A stretch of DNA of 64,000 bases from Eledone cirrhosa (taxonomy: Eukaryota): positions 285,882,001 to 285,946,000 of the forward strand of contig OZ024742.1 of the NCBI GenBank assembly GCA_964016885.1. Reading direction: 5' to 3'. Position numbers and translations under genes: made by a program. The notes below the pieces were generated by a model. The model saw only the letters and a list, made by a program, of their open reading frames with translations, made no database searches and was not told the DNA's origin. Positions 88-64,000 of the stretch are shown here, one piece after another. The stretch's first letter is position 1. Each line of letters starts with the position of its first letter.

Positions 88-170
<83 letters not shown>

Positions 171-5299: not shown

Positions 5300-5850
5300 A
5301 CTTGCCCTTGGATATCATTAGCTGAGCTTGGTAAGTTAGTCTGGGCGTGGTTGTCATTTCCTGATCTCGGTAAGTTAGGCTGGGCTTGGATATCATTAGC
5401 TAAGCTCAGTAAGTTAACGTGGGCTTGGATATCATTATCTAAGCTCAGCAAGTTAGTCAGGGCTTGGATGTCATTAGCTGAGCTCAGTAAGTTGAGCTGG
5501 GCTTGGTTGTCATTAGCTGAGCTCAGTAAGTTAATGTAGGCTAGGATATCATTAGCTAAGCTCGGTAAGTTAAGCTGGGCTTGGGTGTCCTTAGCTGAGC
5601 TCAGTAAGTTAAGCTGGGTTCGGATGTCATTAGCTGAGCTCAATAAGTTCTTCAGGGCTTGGTTATCATTAGCTGAGCTCGGTAAGTTAGTCTGGGCTTG
5701 GATGTCATAAGATGAGCTCGGTAAGTTAGGTTGGGCTTGGATGTCATTAGATGAGTTCGGTAAGTTAGGCTGGGCTTGGATGTTATTAGAGGAGCTCGGT
5801 AAGTTAGGCTGGGCTTGGTTGCAATTAGCTAAGCTCAGTAAGTTAAGCTA
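5300..5850. repeat. 39-bp minisatellite, about 14 units
   Basis: Unit ggatrtcattagctgagctcrgtaagttaggctgggctt; minus frame gives a 13-aa repeat SSANDIQAQLNLL. Confidence 0.95.
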
Positions 5851-7180: not shown

Positions 7181-7337
<157 letters not shown>

Positions 7338-7541
7338 ATTTCTGTATTAAATGCATATATATATACATATATATATATACAGTATATATATATATACAGT
7401 GTATATATATATATATGTGTGTGTGTGTGTGCGTGTATGTATGTGTGTGTGTGTGTTTAACTCTGCAATGGCCGGTGTCTTGTCCAAAGGTTAGTCTTGA
7501 ACCCTCATTCGCTTCACCCCACGGAAACCAGGAAAAGCCCC

Positions 7542-8316: not shown

Positions 8317-8630
8317 CGTGTAGATATATGCATGCAAATATGAGTTTGCGTGCGTGTAGATATATGCATGCAAATATGAGTGTGCGTGCAAATATGTATA
8401 TGTATATAGGTGTGTGTATATATATATATGTACGTATATATATTTGTAAACGTACTAGTATATATGCATATATATGTACATGTGGTGCTATTAGATTATA
8501 CTTGGCCTGTATTGGTCGAAACCTATCTAAGTCATATATATGAGTGTGTGTGTATATATGTATGTCTCTCTCCCCCTCTCTCTCTTTATATATATATATG
8601 CTTATATATATATATATATATATATATATA

Positions 8631-8692
<62 letters not shown>

Positions 8693-8703
8693 TAACAGAT
8701 TAA

Positions 8704-8754
8704 AGTTTAAGCAAAGAATCGCTGCTTTCACCCTTAACGGGATCTTCTGAAACT
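8704..8754 (-). ncRNA. Hammerhead ribozyme motif with variant core CAGAAGA
   Basis: agttt-CAGAAGA-t-ccc-gttaa-ggg-t-GAAA-gca...tgc-TT-aaact; same core in copies at 19534 and 33715. Confidence 0.75.
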
Positions 8755-9682
8755 AACAAAGTCAATCTGTAAACGCAGAACTGGATATTTCAAAAAACGT
8801 TGCAGCCGGAGGAAGACAGGAAGACGATACTTTGGTTCGTGGTGACGTTCGCTGGCAAAGAACAGGAAAAAACGAATAATACGTCATTAATAGGAGCGGT
8901 GAAAAACAATTACGCGCAAAGACAGAACCACGTTTATGATATAAAAGAGGTCGTAGACTAATGTTCTCTTAGGTGGTGCATAGAGACGTTCTCTGGCAAT
9001 GAACGAAAAAACGAAGATAATAAGTCATATGTGGAGCGTGGAGAACAATAGCACGCAAAGACAAAACCACGTAAATGGTATAGCAGAAGTTGTAGACTAA
9101 AATTCTAACTAGGAGACCAAATGAATCTCCGCTACAGAGTTAAGAACAAAGTAAATAAATACAATACAGAAGTAATAGAAACAAATAAATACATACACGC
9201 AAACAGATACGTACATACACAAGCATGCGCAAAACCTTACCATAGGTATACAAAACCACGCACATATAAATATGTGTGTGTGTGTATGCTTGTGTACAAA
9301 TAAATAAATAATTATATAAACATATATAAGTAAATAAATACGTATATAACAAGCGCACACACATACCTACAAATAAATACATGAAGGTTCGGAGACGTAA
9401 GTCAACTAAAACAAGAAGTACACATATACACACACCCGCCATACGTACGAACCTGCATACTCGCGCAGACGCAAAACTCCCGTATACACATAGCCGAACC
9501 CTAAATACCAGAATATGTCAACATTATACGCCATAACAGTCAAATATACGTACGAGAAGGTATACATCCCTTCACAAAACATACGGGTAATATATACTTA
9601 CCTATGCAAATAAGTAAAGGAATAAACAAAACATATACTTAGCTCCCACATCAAGACGTAAAATATCCAGGTATAGATCGTG

Positions 9683-11758
9683 TTATCCGTTAGGGTATAA
9701 CGTGGGGCTGTAATACAGGAAAGTTTTGTGCAATTTATGTTTACAAGCCGAAATTGCCTCAGATTTTTTGTTTAAGATGTGGTCTGTGGCGTAGAGTATT
9801 TCCAGGGCCTCAGCGGCGCAGAGGTCACATGGTTTTTTATTTCCGTTATACGATCTAGCCCTAGCTAGGATCTCCCAGTGTAACTTATGTTGGGTGTGGT
9901 TGTCTTTTAGACTCCAGATATAAGCTGAAAGTGACGTCATATTCCTTCTTAGAGGGTAACGAAAAGAATGGGTATGCATGTAAAGACGCTGCTTGAAACT
10001 ATTGGCGGTTAACCCTATGTAGGCCCTACTGGACGTGGGTGTTACAACCTTACATTTGTAGACAATGTTACTAGAGAGACATTTCCCGGATAGGGGGCAA
10101 TCAGCCCGATTCTTACAATTACAGTTAGTACTAACTACAGGGTTGCACGTGTTCCTACGGCTAGGTAGTTTAGCTAAATTTGAAGCTGTGATGTTATGTG
10201 CAAGGTTAGGAGTCGTAGAGTAAGAAATTTTAATGGTATTTCTATTAAAAATGTTACTATATTTATGTGTAGGGGAAAATGCTTCGTAATAAGGGAAAGA
10301 AAGATCTTAGCTAATGGTGTGGCCACCTCCATATTATATGGTGGGTTATACCAACACATGCGACGGGATCTATTTCTTCTAGGTCTATTTTCGTACTCTG
10401 TATATGCTACATTATCGACAAATCCACTTCGAGCAAGAGCTTCATTTTAATAAGTGGAATGGTCGTTGAAAATACGCTCGTTGGTGGAAAGACGGGAAAG
10501 CCTCAACGAAACGTTTCTTACCAGGTTCTTGGTTATGCTGGCAGGATGGTTGGAATGCTTACTTATGTAATTAAGCGTATCATTCGGCTTTCTATACGGG
10601 TAATACAACCCATTCAATAAATTGAGGGTAACGTCGAGGTAATTAACGACCGAGAGATTGGCCTCAACCTGTATAGAGAGGTTGAAGCCTCTTTTCTGAA
10701 CCTGTCGCAAGCACGAGGTCCGCACTTAGTCATGGTCAAAAGACCGTCGTCACGGTACAAACCACCGCCCGCGTTGGGGAATTCGTCCTTGATAGAGAAA
10801 AGAAGGAAAAGGCCAATAAGATCAGTAACCTCCGCAGAGTTACTGGCGCCCATACTCACGTCGAATGGGGTACTATTGGATTTTTTAATCCAAATAGAGT
10901 CGTCGAAATTAATCACCGACTTCGAAATCCTTAACCACTGTGAGTGTTTTAGCGAAATTGATAGCTCTAAGGAGAAGTGATGGAGGAGTAGTAATTGTTG
11001 ATGTCGAATTGGATAAAACGGCAATGTTCCTTGTTACATATGCCGTTGAACCAATCAATCACCGCGAAAGAATTGTTCCACAGTGCGAGAGGGGCCAAAC
11101 TTCTAATTTCAGGTATAATTCTATCAAGAATCGTTTTACTAAGTATACCCAAATCGGACTTCGTAGGGTTAATAAGCCGAATAGAGGGGTTGTTCGGAAA
11201 ATTGGATTTGTGGTCCTTCAGGGTAAAGTGGGGAGAGATAGGGTCCAGAGGTTCGGTCCGGTCCAGGATGTTGAGATCAGATGTGATTTTAAACCCAGCA
11301 TCGTTGATTTCATTGATGACACACCGATTAGTTTTACGGTAATCCTTAGTTACAGCATTATGTAGTAGTTGATGGTAAGTACTGCGCTCCACTTGATATA
11401 GGTTGCCAGTTTTGTCGGAATGGACGTGCACGGCGTTAGAATCCTTAATAGAACGAATTCTATTCTTCAGGTCTTGCTGGAAGGAATTGCTCCTATTCCG
11501 AAATTTGATACTCCGAATGAGTTCCAAGACATGATTTTCGAAGGGTAGCAATGCTGGGTTCCACGGAGGGTTATTATAGGTTTTAAATCCAAATTTATCC
11601 TGTTTGTTGTCTGCTTTTCGCGGATTATCGAAATAAAAGGCACGCCACCGCAACCTTTTAATGAACGCGTCTGTTTTCTGTATCAGGAGTTTTAGGTATG
11701 TTTTCCTGCTTGGTACTGGTATATTCTTTGTAGAAATATTCAGATGTTGTTTCTGCAT
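9683..11758 (-). pseudogene. Naiad-type PLE reverse transcriptase/GIY-YIG endonuclease, with frameshifts and a stop
   Basis: Consecutive ORF pieces: KNIPVPS..FIKRLRW, SDKTGNLY, FIQFDINNYYSSI, MGASNSAEV..GLYRDDGL, NYLDVTLNL, WYNPPYN, CNC..CPLSGKC, IVY..AYIGLT, CDLC..E, CKH. Confidence 0.92.
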
Positions 11759-12138
11759 GATGAATATAAGTCAGTAGAGTGCTCAACCGAAGGAGCCAAA
11801 TAGTAATAATAATAAAATTGAAGACTAAAATCCAAAGAGGGCTCGATAAGGAAAATATATATCAAATATATAAGAACCGTAGAGCAAATATTTATTAAAA
11901 TATATATATACGTGTTGTACAGTGTCTCACCATATGCTTAAATGCTGGTAGTATGAACATAAAATTGCTGTCATTACTTCCAAGAAACAAGAGTGTATTA
12001 TTGTAATGCTAACATATATATAAATTACAAAATACCAACAGACCATAATGTCTTCATAAGTGTGTCGTCTGTTCTGAACGTCTGCAGTGAGTACAGTAAA
12101 ACATGCACGTACACACCAACATATAAATGGATGATGAC

Positions 12139-13844: not shown

Positions 13845-14138
13845 TTACATTTTATATATATATTTAAAAGTTAAGTTTAAACAATGTTTACAAGAACTAA
13901 ATAAATTATTTCGCAAATTAATAGAGTTCTTAATTTTTATTATGAAGAATATTTCTTCAACGCAAAGGGAGCAACTTTTGGATAGAGCCGTGTATGAAGG
14001 AGCTTTGGAGATAATTTCCCAAAATAAAGAATAGTTAATATTCTTGGATTTTAAGTTCCATAATAAGTTGGATAGAGAGGTTGAAGATTTTTTACCAATA
14101 TTCGTAAAGGAACATTTATGGTTATTGAAACGTTTCAA
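13845..14138 (-). pseudogene. C-terminal fragment of Naiad-type GIY-YIG endonuclease
   Basis: KRFNNHKCSF..TSLSNLLWNLK..WEIISKA.SY..CSLCVEE..SSCKH, colinear with the 9683-9979 ORF. Confidence 0.88.
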
Positions 14139-19388: not shown

Positions 19389-19486
<98 letters not shown>

Positions 19487-19487
<1 letters not shown>

Positions 19488-19692
19488 AAAATAACAGATT
19501 AAAGTTTAAGCAAAGAATCGCTGCTCTCACCCTCAGAAGATCCCGTTAAGGGTGAAAGCAGCGATTCTTTGCTTAAACTTTAATCTGTTATTTTAATAAA
19601 TATTTGCTCTACGGTTCTTATATATTTGATATATATTTATCCTTATCGAGCCCTCTTTGGATTTTAGTCTTCAAATTTATTATTATTACTAT
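19487..19692 (+). mobile_element. Solo fold-back pLTR of the 8687-11900 family in (TA)n
   Basis: 19487-19533 is inverted against 19549-19595; the sense part joins the 3' end and the 5' end of the full element. Confidence 0.88.
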
Positions 19693-32277: not shown

Positions 32278-32382
32278 GAGTGTATGTATAATATATTTGG
32301 CAATATACCGTTTAGAAGACCATACGCTATCAGTTTTAAAGTAGCGACTATGTCACTTCTTTTCGGCGAAAGAATGGAGAGA

Positions 32383-32424
32383 AGCTGACAGTATGTTTCA
32401 CGCTGGTTGGCGTTCATCAGAGCC
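32383..32424 (-). ncRNA. Canonical type-I hammerhead motif in a ~290-bp ORF-less element (32280-32565)
   Basis: ggct-CTGATGA-acgc-caacca-gcgt-GAAA-ca-tac-tg-TC-agct; diverged homologue at 60341-60640 (+). Confidence 0.85.
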
Positions 32425-32565
32425 ACGTACTCCCCTTCTTCCGCCGAAAATTATAGAAGCTGGATTCTTATAGAATTCCAGTAATAATCAGGAGCTGATT
32501 ATACAGAGCGATTGCCGGTCCAGCAAAAATTAGGTATTAGGATTGGTGCTCTGAAATAGCGATGT

Positions 32566-33557: not shown

Positions 33558-33730
33558 AGTAATAATAATAAATGTGAAGACTAAAATCCAAAGAGAGCTC
33601 GATAAGGATAAATATATATCAAATATATAAGAACATTATAGCAAATATTTATTAAAACAATAGATTAAAGTTTAAGCAAAGAATCGCTGCTTTCACCATT
33701 AACGGGATCTTCTGAGTTATTTTAATAAAT
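33558..33730 (-). mobile_element. Solo pLTR of the 8687-11900 family with short inverted 5' piece, in (TA)n
   Basis: 33558-33715 is antisense to 19533-19692; 33716-33730 is a sense piece gttatttttaataaat. Confidence 0.85.
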
Positions 33731-46239: not shown

Positions 46240-46244
<5 letters not shown>

Positions 46245-46322
46245 ATAATAATAAATTTGAAGACTAAGGGTGAAAGCAGCGATTCTTTGCTTAAACTTTA
46301 ATCTGTTATTTTAATAAATATA
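46240..46322. mobile_element. Tiny head-to-head pLTR insertion of the 8687-11900 family in (TA)n
   Basis: Antisense gtaataataataaatttgaagact joined to sense aagggtgaaagcagc...ttttaataaat. Confidence 0.85.
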
Positions 46323-50464: not shown

Positions 50465-50940
50465 TAGTAGGGGTGTTAGTGGGATGAGTGAGTGTGGAGC
50501 GGGGAGAGAAGGGTGTGTGTGGTTCTATGGAGGGAGTGTGGTGTACTGGTGTGTGTGTAGTTTGGTGAAGAGGTGTTAGTGGGTGTTAGTATACGGGAGG
50601 TGGGGAGGGGTGGAATGCAGGTGTGAGTGGGGGTAGGGTGTGTAGAGTTGGTGGTGTACGAGGGTGTGTGGGTACGTGTGCGTGGGGTTGGAGGGTGTTA
50701 GTGATGTTAGTTGCGTGTGGGGTGGGTGGTGTAAGAGGGTGCGTGTGTGTGTGTGATAAGGAGGGGGGAGGAGGAGAAGAGGGGAGGGAAGGGATGTTAG
50801 TATGTTAGTTGGGGAAGGGTGGTCAGATGAGGGGTGGAGTGGAGGTGTTAGTATTGTTAGTGTGGGGTGGGCGGTGAAAAGGAGGGGTGTGTTAGTGGTG
50901 TTAGTGGGGGATAAGTGTGGGGGGAGGGGGCGGTCGAACG

Positions 50941-53734
50941 CTAAAGGAATAAGGGTGGGGAGTTCAGGCCGGGGGGAGTGTGGGTCTGTAAGATGAAGAT
51001 GGTACGTTGTTCGACCGTAAGGCGATGGGCGGGTGTTCCGTGGCACTGGAGTAGGCCACAGACTGTCAGATGGCGTGCGGAGTGTCCAGGGCCACCAAAG
51101 TGGCGGGCGATGGGGGAACTGCCCCCGAGACGAATGTCCCGGAGGTGCTCCGTGACTCGGTCCGCCAGGCGACGTCCCGTCTGTCCGACATAAGTCGAAC
51201 TGCACTCCGTGCAACGAAGTCCGTAGACTAGGTTGGAGGAGGTGCAGCGGAAGGCATGCCGGACCGAGAGAGGGTGGCCGTTGGGACCCTGGAAGGTGGT
51301 GGTGTTGGTGATGTGGGGACAGGTGTTGCAGCGGGGCCTAGAACAGGGGAAGGAACCGGGGGGGGGAACGGAGCGTGGGTTGGGGGGTAGGGAGCTGTGG
51401 ACGAGGAGGGTGCGGAGATTGCGTGTGCGTTTGAAGGAGGGGAGTGGTGGGGTTGGGAAGATGTGGGAGGTGGAGGGGTCGGACTGGAGGGGTCGGAAGA
51501 GGCGGCGGATGGTGCGGTGGAGGGGTAAAGTGGAGGGGTGGTAGGTGATGGGGAAGGGGAGACGGTGGGTGGGTGTGCGGTGGCGTGGGGTGAGGGTGGT
51601 GGAGCGGGGGATAGCACGGGCGCGGGTGAGAGCGGTGTGGACAAGAGAGGGGGGGTAACCTCTGCGGATGAAATGGCTGACTAGGGAAAGGGCCTGGGAC
51701 TCGAAGTCAGCATCTCGGCTACAGAGGCGGCGGATCCTGAGAAGTTGGGAGTAGGGAATGGAGAGTTTAGTGTGGGTGGGGTGGGAAGAGGTGAAGTCGA
51801 GGTAAGAGTGGGAGTCGGTGGGTTTGAAGAAGGCGGAGGTGACGAGGGAGTGGTGGGAGGGGTCGAAGGCGACGGAGATGTCCAAGAAGTGGACGTGGGT
51901 GGTGGAGATAGAGGTGGTGAAGTGGAGGGAGGGGTGGAAGGAGCAGAAGAAGGAGAGAAAGGAGTCGAGCTGTACTCGGGTGAGGGTCGTGGCTCCGATA
52001 CAGTCGTCAATGTAACGACCGTACAGTTCGGGCGTGGGGCCGGTGTACTGGGCAAAGATTTGGGCCTCAACATGGCCAACAAAAAGGTTGGCATAGTTCG
52101 GGCCCATTCTTGTGCCCATGGCTACCCCCGTGACCTGTTGGTAAAACTCACCCGAGAAGGAGAAACAATTTAGGGTGAGGACCAGCTCGGCGAGGCGAAG
52201 GAGGGTGGGGGTGGAGGGAATGGGGGAGGGGCGAAGGTCGAGGTAGTGTTTGAGGGCGCGAAGGCCGTCGGCGTGGGGAATGACGGTATAGATGGACTTG
52301 ATGTCTAGGGTGAAGAGGAATGGCTGAGGGCCGGGTAGGTAGGTGAAGGAGTCGAAAAGGCGCAGGGCGTGGTTGGTGTCGGAGATGTGGGAGGGGAGGG
52401 TGGTGACAAGGGGAGCGAGGAGGGAGTCGAGATAGGCGGAGATGAGTTCGGTGGGGCAGTTGCAAGCGGAGACGATGGGGCGGCCGGGGTTGTCGGGTTT
52501 GTGGAGTTTGGGGAGGAAGTAGATGGTGGGGGTGCAGGGGGTGCGGACGATGAGGTGGGAAGCGGTGGGGGGGAGGAGGGAGGAGGCGATAAGGTCTTTG
52601 ATGGTGGAGGAGACTTGTTGTTGGTAGAGGGGGGTGGGATCGGAGGGTAGAGGGCGGTAAAAGAGGGGGTTACAGAGCTGCCTGAGGGCTTCGGCCGTGT
52701 AGAGGTCCGCGCGCCATACCACCACGGCGCCTCCCTTGTCCGCCGGTTTGATGACGATGTCATCTCGGCTACGGAGGGAGCGGAGAGCGAGGAGTTCGCC
52801 CCGTGAGATGTTGTGCCGTTTGGAACGGTGGCGGAAGTCGAAACGATTTACTGCGCTACGGCTGGCATCGACGAAGGCGTCCAGGGTGCTAAATTGCCCT
52901 GGGGCCGGCGTCCAAGAAGATGGTCGTCGGCCCAGGGCGAGAAACGGGTCTGGGGCGTCCGGAGCCGGTGGCGTTCGGCTGAAATGTGCCTGTAGCTTAG
53001 TGCGTCGCACGAATCGCTCGACTTCCGTTCGGGTGCGGAACTCGTCGCTGTGCGGAGTGTGGGGTATGAAGCGAAGGCCTCTACTAAGGAGTGAGCGCTC
53101 AGGTGCGGAGAGGGGGAGGTCAGGGGGTATGGTGACAACAAGGGGTGGGGTTTGGGTGTTTGGGGAGGGAAGGGAGGGTGTGGTGAGGGGGTGGAGATTG
53201 GGTGGGGGTGGGGTCGGGGGAGAGGTGGGGAGTGGTGGGCGTATGGGGATGGGCGGGTGGTGGTGGATGGGGGGGGAGTGAGTGTAGCTTGCGGGCTTTG
53301 GTGGAGCTGAGGAACGAGAAGAGGTTGGGGTTGAGGTTGTGGATGAAGGAGAGGATGGCTTGGGCGAGGAGGGGGTGGCAGGTGGAGTAAAGGCGGAGGA
53401 GGGTGGGGGTCAGTTGGTGGTCAAGTAGGCGGAGGGTGGAACGGGAGGCGCGGATGGAGTTGCGCATCAGAAGGCGTGAGGATCGGGTGAGGATACGTTG
53501 CGCGGAGGGGGAAGCAGCGGGGGAGGGGTGGAAGTGTAGACGGAAGCCAAGGGGGATAAGGTGGAGGCGGAGGCAGTGGCTGAGGAAATGGATGTGGCTG
53601 GAGTGCCGGGTTTTGGCGAAGAGAAGGTAGGAGAGTTGAAGGGCGGAGGGGAGATAGCAGGGTGGAAGGAGGGGGGTGAGGAAAAGTTTGAGGCGATTGT
53701 GGAGTTGGTGGAGAAAGGATGTCAGGTTGGCCAT
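50941..53734 (-). CDS. PLE reverse transcriptase plus GIY-YIG endonuclease, about 930 aa, one frameshift near 53120-53280
   Basis: IKPADKGGAVV, FLPKLHK..PGRPIVS, LDIKSIYT, GVAMGTRMGPNYANLF, RYIDD, FLDI, Cys linker CSRPRCNTC, LVY..C..C..YVGQT.R...R..EH; ATG at 53734; span 2794 nt = 931 codons + 1. Confidence 0.93.
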
Positions 53735-58050: not shown

Positions 58051-58826
58051 CGATGATTCCTCTCGAATGAAACAGTTCTAGTCCTGTAGATGCTATTTCT
58101 ATATTAAATATTTATACTCTGCTATGTATTGAGTACCTTACTTACTGTGGTTACCCCCGATTGAACCCGGGATAAACTTATATATGTATGTGCGTGTGTG
58201 CGTGTGTGTGTGTGTGTGTGTATTCATAAAATGGGAGACATTAGTAAAATAGGCAATGCTAGACGTCCTAATGGCGCAGACATATGCACGATTTCTTCCT
58301 TTTGCTAGTATAAAATATAATATTTCTCAATCTCTAGTATGTTGCCTTCAGGTCTGTAATACAATGAAAGGAGGGGCGAGACAACGTTATATCTAAACCA
58401 GCCATTTTGTCTTTACAATAAAAGAAATCGTGAGTGTTTTTGCCCGAGTACATATATTTATACACAGACACACACACATGCATAGGCATACACACAAACA
58501 TGGTGTGTGTATGTATATATATGTGATGTATATGTGTATATATATGTATATATATATATGCGTGTGTATATATATCTATATATATATATCTATATATATA
58601 TATATATCCATAAATGGCGTGACGTTAGCAAAATAAATTCATATATATATATATATGTATGTATATGTATGTATGGATGGATGTATATACACGTGTGTGT
58701 GTTTGCTGTATACATGCACAGATGTGCACACATATGCACAAATATGCACAAATATGCACACATATGCACACATATAAACATGCACATATTTAGTTAGTAA
58801 GAAAATCAATAGATTTCGAGTGATTT

Positions 58827-60183: not shown

Positions 60184-60640
60184 TTAGAATTGGTGCTCTG
60201 AAATAGCGATATATATTTTTTTATATCGCTATTGTTTTAAAGTAGTGACAATGTCACTTCTATTACTGGAATTCTATAAGAATCCAACATTCATAATTTT
60301 CAGCAGACAAAATACACTATATATACATTCATATATATATATCGCTATTTCAGAGCACCAATTCTAATTTTCAATTTTTGCTGGACCGGCAACCGCTCTG
60401 GATAATCAGGTCCTGATTATTACTGGAATTCTATAAGAATCCAACATTCATAATTTTCAGCAGGCAGGAGGAGTGCTGAGCTTTGATAAGTAACAACAAG
60501 TAAGAAACAGAGCCCTGTCAGCTTATCTCCCCTTGTTTGCTGAAAATAGAAGTAAGTGACACTGTCACTACTTTAAAACAATAGCGTAAGGTCTTCAAAA
60601 TGTTTTTAATTAAGCATACAGTGTATTGCAAAATGCACTA
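60184..60640 (+). mobile_element. ORF-less pLTR-like element (homologue of 32280-32565) preceded by scrambled self-fragments
   Basis: Shared atcgctatttcagagcaccaat..ttgctggaccggcaa; decayed hammerhead agct-TTGATAA..GAAA-cag..ctg-TC-agct at ~60479-60524. Confidence 0.75.
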
Positions 60641-63424: not shown

Positions 63425-63870
63425 ACACAATTAAACTTTCCTATTCGACTACTAAAAATATTGTCCAAAATATAGCTAAAATTAACAATAGAAATCTTGG
63501 AATTAAACATTGGGAAATAACTCACAATAATAATCATAGAATCACTAATGGAATTAACAACATCTCAAATAACAGTCATAATTACATTTACATAGGCGAT
63601 GGAAATCTGCCGAATTATGAACACATAGTGGGAAATTTAAATAATTGTAATTGTAAAAACCGTAATATTTGCCCACTTAATAATAACTATCTGGATCATA
63701 ACTTAGTTTTATAAATGCATAGTTAAAACGAAGGATAAGTCTTTTAGTTATATTGGTGCCACTTCTTCTAAATCTAAAGAAAGGTGATATAACCATCGCC
63801 ACTCGATTAAAAGAAAAGATAAAAGATTTACTACGGCCCTCTCTGAATTGATTTGGTCTCTTTCAACTAA
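63425..63870 (+). pseudogene. Naiad-type PLE linker and GIY-YIG fragment
   Basis: TIKLSYSTTKNI...NCNCKNRNICPLNNN...KCIVKT...SYIGAT...R*YNHRHS..TALSELIWSL. Confidence 0.82.
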
Positions 63871-64000
63871 CATAAAGAAAATTAGGAGCCAAAATATCAA
63901 ATGAAAAAACGGAGTTAAAGACTCGCATTAATCCCCTTTAATTTAATGAGCTCAAGGAATAAGTACCGAGCTCTTCATAATGCAGTATATAGAGAAGAAA

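What the first reader, a model, noticed from the sequence alone, without database searches (positions are those of the whole stretch)
8704..8754. Hammerhead with a family-wide non-canonical core CAGAAGA (U4 to A)
Seen: stems I-III, GAAA and a CUU triplet are intact, but the CUGA turn reads CAGA in all three copies that include it (8743-8749 -, 19534-19540 +, 33708-33714 -), so it is not a decay mutation in one copy. Established: U4 is highly conserved in hammerheads. Inference: a natural core variant that may be slow, conditional or repurposed, and that standard searches would miss.
Basis: partly seen in the sequence, partly recalled or inferred. Interest (0 to 1): 0.75.

Follow-up and report, generated by a model that had tools for sequence, protein, structure and literature searches.

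The report
Core-mutated hammerhead capping a retrotransposon transcript
A young jumping gene with over 20,000 copies in this animal genome carries a hammerhead-shaped RNA motif with an A where its relatives have the normally essential U; the motif likely forms the first 51 letters of the element's capped RNA, and the change likely slows self-cutting so that more of that RNA stays capped and whole.

Summary
Confirmed and family-wide. The motif is the pLTR hammerhead of a young Hydra-type Penelope-like retroelement with intact 709-aa ORFs. Exact CAGAAGA copies number 20,026; CTGA copies 640, of which 28 of 30 examined are fold-back junction read-throughs. A4 is derived: the sister family in this genome, 44 of 45 metagenomic relatives and the oldest subfamily (2 unbiased copies) have U4. 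After the change, subfamily flanks diverged at 28 of 82 sites but unforced stem and core sites at 0 of 22, so the fold stayed under selection. New here: truncated copies pile up at the first base of stem I, with an extra G in 52 of 80 junctions (25% expected), the known mark of a copied cap; relatives show a TATA box about 30 nt upstream. So the hammerhead likely sits at the capped 5' end, where cutting would decap the mRNA. U4A likely slows cutting strongly; this is untested, and genomic ends cannot show it because the canonical sister family also lacks cut-site ends. Only window copy 1 has all three stems. No RNA data were available. Three earlier scan notes already report the U4A family. 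New variant of a known kind.

The parts
8704..8754 (-). Type I hammerhead-derived motif, copy 1 (complete), positions +1..+51 of the inferred transcript
8750..8754 (-). Stem I 5' strand; 8754 is the inferred transcription start (+1), in an initiator-like context (consensus recalled)
   Evidence: 5'-end clustering and extra G in genomic copies
8743..8749 (-). Core C3 A4 G5 A6 A7 G8 A9; A4 at 8748 replaces U4
8730..8742 (-). Stem II: U10.1-U11.1 mismatch, 3 C-G pairs, 5-nt loop
   Evidence: U-U closure in 22 of 45 relatives
8726..8729 (-). G12 A13 A14 A15.1
8710..8726 (-). Helix III, 4-5 bp, with G15.2-C16.2 (C-G in 45 of 45 metagenomic relatives)
8709..8711 (-). CUU triplet; predicted cut between 8709 and 8708
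   Evidence: hammerhead numbering; cutting untested
8704..8708 (-). Stem I 3' strand
8587..8703 (-). 3' tail ending near +70..+75 in a (TA)n tract; one of two family-wide 3' ends (the other near +163), inferred reverse-transcription starts
   Evidence: 59 of 101 ends at +74/75, 27 at +161..164
8755..9682 (-). 3' UTR of the element; its last ~40 nt lie where the promoter of the next unit would be; holds a 139-bp tandem duplication
9683..11758 (-). RT + C-terminal GIY-YIG-type ORF of a Hydra-type Penelope-like element, broken by frameshifts and stops in this copy; 709 aa intact in other copies
11759..11902 (-). 5' leader remnant (about +61..+204); first ATG of intact units is at +204 to +206
19484..19690 (+). 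Copy 2: fold-back stub, inverted arm plus direct piece +5..about +162; core at 19534-19540; no stem I 5' strand
33558..33716 (-). Copy 3: 5'-truncated stub from +5; core at 33708-33714; stem II mismatch
46241..46321 (+). Copy 4: stub that begins inside stem II, without the CAGAAGA core

Best explanation
The motif is the pLTR hammerhead of a Hydra-type Penelope-like retroelement in which U4 changed to A once and was fixed; it likely forms the first 51 nt of the element's capped RNA, and A4 likely slows self-cleavage to little or none, so that more transcripts would keep their cap and their reverse-transcription start sites. Shown: element identity, copy numbers, fixation of A4, U4 in outgroups, retention of stems and the other core bases across subfamilies, clustering of copy 5' ends at stem I with an extra G. 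Inferred: the G is a copied cap, so +1 is the start site; a cut at +46/47 would remove the cap from the mRNA (first AUG at +205) and, at the downstream repeat, cut off both inferred RT start sites (+75, +163); A4 breaks the U-turn and adds an A4-U11.1 pair that favours a helix hiding GAAA. The three-way fold is still selected, as a much slower ribozyme or as a structure bound by the element's protein.
For: Family-wide A4. Young, intact-ORF family (2.8% mean difference per motif site; 713-codon open frames). A4 derived: sister family B in the same genome (about 50% aa identity, joined at SH-aLRT 100 in a quick tree) has CUGAUGA; 44 of 45 distinct metagenomic motifs have U4 and none A4; all 26 Hydra rows of File S2 of PMC8557442 read ctga; oldest own-genome subfamily has U4 (L428, L434 unbiased; L418 from a T-selected search). 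Selection after the change: S1 against 21 S3-type copies, 0 of 22 unforced stem/core sites differ against 28 of 82 flank sites (Fisher p 0.0006, 0.0014 with noisy columns dropped). Start site: 52 of 80 non-T junctions at +1 have G, 25% expected (my tally of the 100 rows; p 5e-14 treating rows as independent); in the 30 loci checked by script 15 of 21 junctions not explained by the inverted arm had G; extra G is read as the cap in L1 insertions (PMC11702581, passages); family B has TATAAA at -30; TATA-like word 28-48 nt before C3 in 19 of 45 relatives against 4.4 +/- 2.0 shuffled. Effect of U4: all single mutants of the CUGA turn had low activity in a mutational scan (PMC9901934, passages); predicted pairing that hides GAAA rises from <=0.04 to 0.22-0.51 with A4. 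Hammerhead mutants did not impair insertion by another Penelope element in vitro, and uncut RNA was the template (PMC11167929, passages).
Against: No cleavage assay and no U4A rate constant found in the papers I could read. Conservation of G5, A6, U17 and all stems after the change fits residual catalysis equally well. U4C is reported to keep enough activity for viroid infectivity (PMC3088659, passages), and the Anolis Penelope hammerhead cuts only with protein, so low intrinsic activity need not mean none in vivo. Family B with a canonical core has 15,678 anchor matches, so A4 is not needed for success and an advantage is not shown. Absence of cut-site 5' ends (at most 1 of about 100) does not discriminate, since family B shows none by eye in 100 rows either. 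This family has no clear TATA box at -30. The start site rests on DNA junctions only. The U4 ancestor subfamily rests on 2 unbiased decayed copies. The S3 sample was selected on G8-A9-U-C-C and GGUGAAAGC, so those sites could not be tested. ViennaRNA gives stem I low probability for both A4 and U4 copies (0.07 and 0.10).
Confidence: 0.55

Rival explanations
1. A4 is a working natural core: the ribozyme still cuts at a biologically useful rate, helped by the element protein or by a dimer, and selection keeps the fold for catalysis.
For: 0 of 22 unforced structural sites changed while flanks changed at 28 of 82; helix III pairs kept with one-sided changes; protein-assisted cutting of a Penelope hammerhead; tolerated U4C; cleavage can drive cap-independent translation in viral 5' UTRs (PMC13725137, passages).
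Against: Low activity of all CUGA-turn single mutants; added handicaps (3-bp stem II with U-U, U17, stem I limited to 5 bp by the start site, so no loop I contact is apparent); predicted competing helix; no excess of copies starting at +47, though that test is weak.
Confidence: 0.27
2. A4 is a neutral passenger: the ribozyme is dispensable, died in one master lineage, and the sequence is kept only because it overlaps the initiator, downstream promoter and protein-binding DNA or RNA signals, not as a fold.
For: The motif starts at the inferred +1, where promoter elements lie; one small non-autonomous group spread with G4 (L447-L449, from a selected search); covariation inside the family does not exceed shuffles (156 of 500).
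Against: Loops II and III change while both strands of all three stems stay; one compensatory C-G to U-A pair in stem II (2 cells); 90% of cells pair against 27-65% when slid.
Confidence: 0.12
3. CAG is a 3' splice acceptor (pyrimidine tract before it), and splicing to an upstream donor rebuilds or switches the ribozyme, as the D. virilis Penelope intron ends at helix I.
For: Acceptor-like sequence before the core and donor-like GTAAG words in the 3' UTR; D. virilis precedent (PMC4209133).
Against: 0 of 178 distinct copies join sense-strand body sequence to +1..+9; by eye no donor-like site gives both a CUG core and stem I; the 5-bp stem I pairs with the unspliced sequence; junctions carry G with unrelated upstream letters, as expected for a cap and not for a fixed exon.
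Confidence: 0.04
4. The match is chance or an assembly artefact.
For: Fold z-score 0.12; no Rfam hammerhead hit.
Against: 20,026 exact copies; same sequence in four public runs; hammerheads at the homologous place in 56 of 77 related loci against 0.6 hits per shuffled set.
Confidence: 0.01

Closest known systems
Hydra-clade Penelope-like elements and their pLTR hammerheads (Craig et al. 2021, PMC8557442; section 11, passages and supplement parts 1-2 read)
   Same: Single ORF with RW[KR], DKT, CxCX5C linker, C-terminal CxxC and CxH; (TA)n targets; tandem and inverted pLTRs; type I hammerhead about 200 nt before the ATG, with U after A9 and U before G12, often U17.
   Different: U4 to A; G15.2-C16.2 instead of C-G; 4-5 bp helix III with a long loop instead of a short palindromic one; unit 3.24-3.46 kb (paper: generally <3 kb); the paper does not place the start site at the hammerhead in the parts I read.
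Minimal and variant hammerheads of metazoan PLEs (Cervera and de la Pena 2014, PMC4209133; parts 1-2 of 4 read)
   Same: Hammerhead in pLTRs, thousands of truncated copies, low intrinsic activity, family-wide core variants (U3-A8 in S. mansoni).
   Different: Their core variant is a compensatory pair; this one is an uncompensated change of the U-turn base; no intron overlap found here.
Natural core variants such as viroid U4C, A6C, U15.1-A16.1 (Perreault et al. 2011, PMC3088659; passages read)
   Same: Single core change in an otherwise complete fold; U10.1-U11.1 tolerated.
   Different: Those are rare single sequences, U4C is a pyrimidine; U4A is not named in that paper's main text (0 occurrences) and here it is fixed in over 20,000 copies.
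Poseidon element of Anolis (Frangieh et al. 2024, PMC11167929; passages read)
   Same: Internal RT starts define the tails; uncut RNA is the template; no RNA ends at the cut site.
   Different: Canonical core, protein-assisted cutting, hammerhead overlaps the start codon; here the motif is 150 nt upstream of the ATG and likely abuts the cap.

Membership tests
Hammerhead ribozyme (type I) | Three helices around the core in the order I-II-III-I | tested here: met
   Copy 1; 90% of cells paired over 21 copies
Hammerhead ribozyme (type I) | Core C3 G5 A6 G8 A9 G12 A13 A14 A15.1 U16.1 H17 | tested here: met
Hammerhead ribozyme (type I) | U4 | tested here: not met
   A in 62 of 62 unbiased copies; hence filed as hammerhead-derived, not as a proven ribozyme
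Hammerhead ribozyme (type I) | Paired 10.1-11.1 (usually G-C) | tested here: not met
   U-U; a tolerated natural variant and common in this clade (22 of 45)
Hammerhead ribozyme (type I) | Rfam hammerhead model score | tested here: not met
   No hammerhead family at E<=10; canonical copy at 7293 also not listed
Hammerhead ribozyme (type I) | Site-specific self-cleavage after H17 | not testable with these tools
   Needs an assay; genomic 5' ends uninformative
Hydra-clade Penelope-like element | Single ORF, RT with C-terminal GIY-YIG-type nuclease | tested here: met
   709-aa ORF; 477 homologs at 38-56% among the 120 listed, one annotated PF01541; own Pfam scan gave no relevant hit
Hydra-clade Penelope-like element | RWK motif, DKT in place of DKG | tested here: met
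   RWR and DKT in the translation, against section 11 of PMC8557442, (K to R in RWK)
Hydra-clade Penelope-like element | CxCX5C linker; CxxC and CxH near the C-terminus | tested here: met
   Read from the translation
Hydra-clade Penelope-like element | (TA)n insertion, tandem and inverted pLTRs, tails | tested here: met
Hydra-clade Penelope-like element | Canonical hammerhead in the pLTR (reported as universal in the clade) | tested here: not met
   U4A; this is the exception reported, so the element is called Hydra-type on protein motifs
Hydra-clade Penelope-like element | Phylogenetic placement with named Hydra reference proteins | not tested
   The tree held only unnamed relatives; supplement files S4 and S7 were not read
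Non-autonomous retrozyme | Short non-coding tandem unit bounded by hammerheads | tested here: not met
   Motif-to-motif unit is 3.24-3.46 kb and holds the ORF

The most novel reading that the evidence does not exclude
Hydra-clade Penelope hammerheads are cap-adjacent self-decapping brakes: transcription starts at the first base of stem I, cutting removes the cap and the RT start sites, and this lineage escaped the brake by U4A while keeping the fold as a pseudo-ribozyme (or tuned it into a U-turn-less slow ribozyme), spreading to over 20,000 copies.
Probability: 0.3. Interest if true: 0.75.

Novelty: new variant of a known kind. Interest (0 to 1): 0.5.

Why it matters
What hammerheads do for Penelope-like elements is open (PMC8557442 and PMC11167929 say so in the passages read). 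This genome holds a matched pair: two related, very abundant families, one with U4 and one with A4, plus an older U4 subfamily of the A4 lineage. That makes a direct test of whether the ribozyme helps, limits or merely rides on the element. If the motif starts at the cap, cleavage has a clear consequence (decapping) that can be measured with a reporter. If A4 proves active, a base held to be nearly invariant is replaceable and descriptor searches miss whole families. I found neither a natural U4A family nor a start site at stem I in print (searches), but Ruffner 1990, Ambros 1998, Nelson 2008 and Lunse 2017 could not be read (the last three not held; the first not looked up).

Tried and rejected
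DNA search of the own genome with the 126-nt stretch gave nothing because common words are skipped; patterns worked. Splice-acceptor idea: rejected (0 of 178). CTGA copies as a surviving active subfamily of the young family: rejected (28 of 30 abut an inverted arm because TTC-A-GAA is a quasi-palindrome centred on position 4; a search for canonical-core sisters with G15.2 gave 237 matches, the 100 listed almost all young-family mutants or junctions). A-to-I editing as rescue: rejected by reasoning, it would give I (G-like), not U. Cut-site 5' ends as proof of activity or inactivity: uninformative, control family lacks them too (3 of 181 contexts not contiguous at +47, one a deletion). Pfam and Rfam gave no useful hit. 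The S3 pattern was mis-sized and gave 3 matches. An HMM for incidental old copies found mostly young ones. Within-family covariation was not above shuffles. The careful tree did not finish; the quick tree is cited. PMC11014351, PMC3376415, PMC12029980, PMC6155905 (passages) gave no U4A data; the supplement list of PMC9901934 was seen but not read, and it may hold single-mutant values.

Full report
Observation. The minus strand at 8754-8704 holds a complete type I hammerhead layout whose core reads CAGAAGA. The same core is at 19534 (+) and 33714 (-), but these two copies start at +5 and lack the 5' strand of stem I, and copy 3 has a stem II mismatch. Rfam lists no hammerhead here; it also missed the canonical copy at 7293.

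What it belongs to. Copy 1 is the 3' end of a 3.2-kb element running 11902 to about 8685, with a broken ORF between TA tracts. Other copies have intact 709-aa ORFs; the motif recurs every 3243-3457 nt in 5 tandem copies, with the first ATG at +204 to +206. The protein has RWR, DKT, CxCX5C, CxxC and CxH, the marks of the Hydra clade of Penelope-like elements (PMC8557442 section 11). I did not place it in a tree with named Hydra proteins. Copy 3' ends fall at two points, +74/75 (59 of 101) and +161 to +164 (27 of 101), like the internal RT starts of PMC11167929.

How fixed is A4. Exact matches: 20,026 with CAGAAGA, 640 with CTGANGA. Of 30 CTGA loci, 28 abut an inverted arm (20 centred exactly on position 4) and 2 have an intact stem I. 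With stem I required, 121 copies have C, G or T at position 4 (my tally of the 100 listed: T 43, G 41, C 16), the pattern of sporadic mutation. In a sample anchored downstream of the core, 62 of 62 full ungapped copies have A, mean difference 2.8% per site. Part of the count is not independent: 7 of 108 sampled contexts are a -50..+75 piece carried inside another repeat.

A4 is derived. Of 77 metagenomic loci with related ORFs, 56 gave a relaxed-descriptor hit (shuffled control 0.6 per set); 21 gave none and were not examined further. Among 45 distinct motifs, 44 have U4, one C4, none A4; all have C15.2-G16.2 where this family has G-C; U-U at 10.1/11.1 occurs in 22 and U17 in 2. All 26 Hydra rows of File S2 read ctga, though they were found with a canonical descriptor. 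Family B of this genome (15,678 anchor matches, canonical CUGAUGA, about 50% aa identity) is the nearest relative in a quick tree of 35 proteins (SH-aLRT 100). Older subfamilies with different loops carry A4; the most diverged group has U4 (L428 and L434, sampled without regard to position 4; L418 from a T-selected search). That group is thinly sampled.

The fold stayed under selection. Comparing the young family with 21 S3-type copies, the flanks differ at 14 of 40 upstream and 14 of 42 downstream sites and loop III at 3 of 7, while 0 of 22 stem and core sites not forced by the search pattern differ (p 0.0006). Sites G8 to C15 and G23 to C31 were forced and are not tested. Across 21 copies 90% of cells pair, against 27-65% when slid, but covariation does not exceed shuffles. 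So A4 did not start free decay; the constraint may be catalysis, protein binding or promoter overlap.

The motif likely begins the capped transcript. In about 100 unbiased copies, 5' ends are dense between +1 and +46, with 8 at +1 (6 preceded by G), sparse upstream, and at most 1 at the cut site. 2,378 copies have a non-T base before +1; of the 100 listed I counted 20 contiguous point mutants and 80 junctions: G 52, A 20, C 8, against 25% G expected. Some rows are the two strands of one palindrome and some Gs are explained by the inverted arm; in the 30 loci checked by script, 15 of 21 unexplained junctions had G, and several palindromes carry the extra G on both arms. An extra G at full-length L1 5' junctions is read as the copied cap (PMC11702581). 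Family B shows the same by eye (G in 7 of 10 junctions at its stem I edge) and has TATAAA at -30. A TATA-like word lies 28-48 nt before C3 in 19 of 45 relatives against 4.4 in shuffles (max 11 of 500 runs; the window was chosen after seeing the data and some motifs are near-duplicates). This family has an initiator-like word (consensus recalled) but no clear TATA box. No RNA run was listed, so the start site is inferred from DNA only.

Mechanism. Inferred: a cut at +46/47 would release the cap from an mRNA whose first AUG is at +205 and, in the downstream repeat, would sever both RT start sites; uncut RNA is therefore what gets translated by scanning and copied, in line with the Anolis element. 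All single mutants of the CUGA turn had low activity in a mutational scan, U4 contacts the A6-N7 phosphate, and A4 can pair with U11.1 to extend a helix that hides GAAA (predicted 0.22-0.51 against at most 0.04; stem I is predicted weak for both). I therefore favour strongly slowed cutting with a retained fold (0.55) over useful residual or protein-assisted activity (0.27), promoter-only constraint (0.12) and splicing (0.04; 0 of 178 spliced joins). Against an advantage of A4: family B prospers with U4. The lack of cut-site ends cannot decide, since family B lacks them too.

Relation to what is known. Hammerheads in Penelope pLTRs and rare core variants are in print. A fixed U4A and a start site at stem I were not found in my searches; four classic papers could not be read. 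Three earlier AI notes on this genome report the same U4A family, split between slow and crippled; they are not independent support, and their summaries do not mention the cap signature or the U4 ancestor. Verdict: real, new variant of a known kind, interest 0.5.

Noticed in passing
window 7285-7340 (+) and 58052-58107 (+): Canonical CUGAUGA hammerhead of sister Hydra-type family B (15,678 anchor matches; TATAAA at -30; its core holds an upstream AUG). Used as control.
   Followed up: yes
window 32367-32438 (-); related decayed copies 60373-60600 and in L017: Canonical type I hammerhead (Rfam HH9, 24 bits, below gathering score) in a third repeat family; the other copies have decayed cores.
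   Followed up: no
window about 50900-53100 (-): GC-rich, strongly skewed Penelope-like RT ORF; the DKG motif can be read by eye near 52740; long G-rich flanks on the plus strand.
   Followed up: partly
L225, L227, L238, L287, L322, L323: A -50..+75 piece of the A4 element, with promoter end and motif, sits inside another repeat family with shared flanks, so it was amplified as a passenger (about 7% of sampled copies).
   Followed up: partly
L447-L449: Three copies sharing one junction have G4 in the direct arm but A4 in the inverted arm: probably a small non-autonomous group that spread with G4.
   Followed up: partly
L032, L066, L014, L016, L093, L079, L002: At least five further minimal hammerhead families with canonical cores in neighbouring DNA, some with palindromic short helix III and CUU or CUA sites.
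   Followed up: no
window 13860-14135 (-) and 63643-63871 (+): Fragments of more distant relatives of the same nuclease domain (38-55% aa identity).
   Followed up: no
window 5307-5849; 8844-9100: 39-bp tandem array of 14 units; 139-bp tandem duplication inside the element's 3' UTR.
   Followed up: no
metagenome loci L133-L209: TATA-like box about 30 nt before stem I in many Hydra-type elements of other organisms suggests the cap-adjacent hammerhead is clade-wide.
   Followed up: partly
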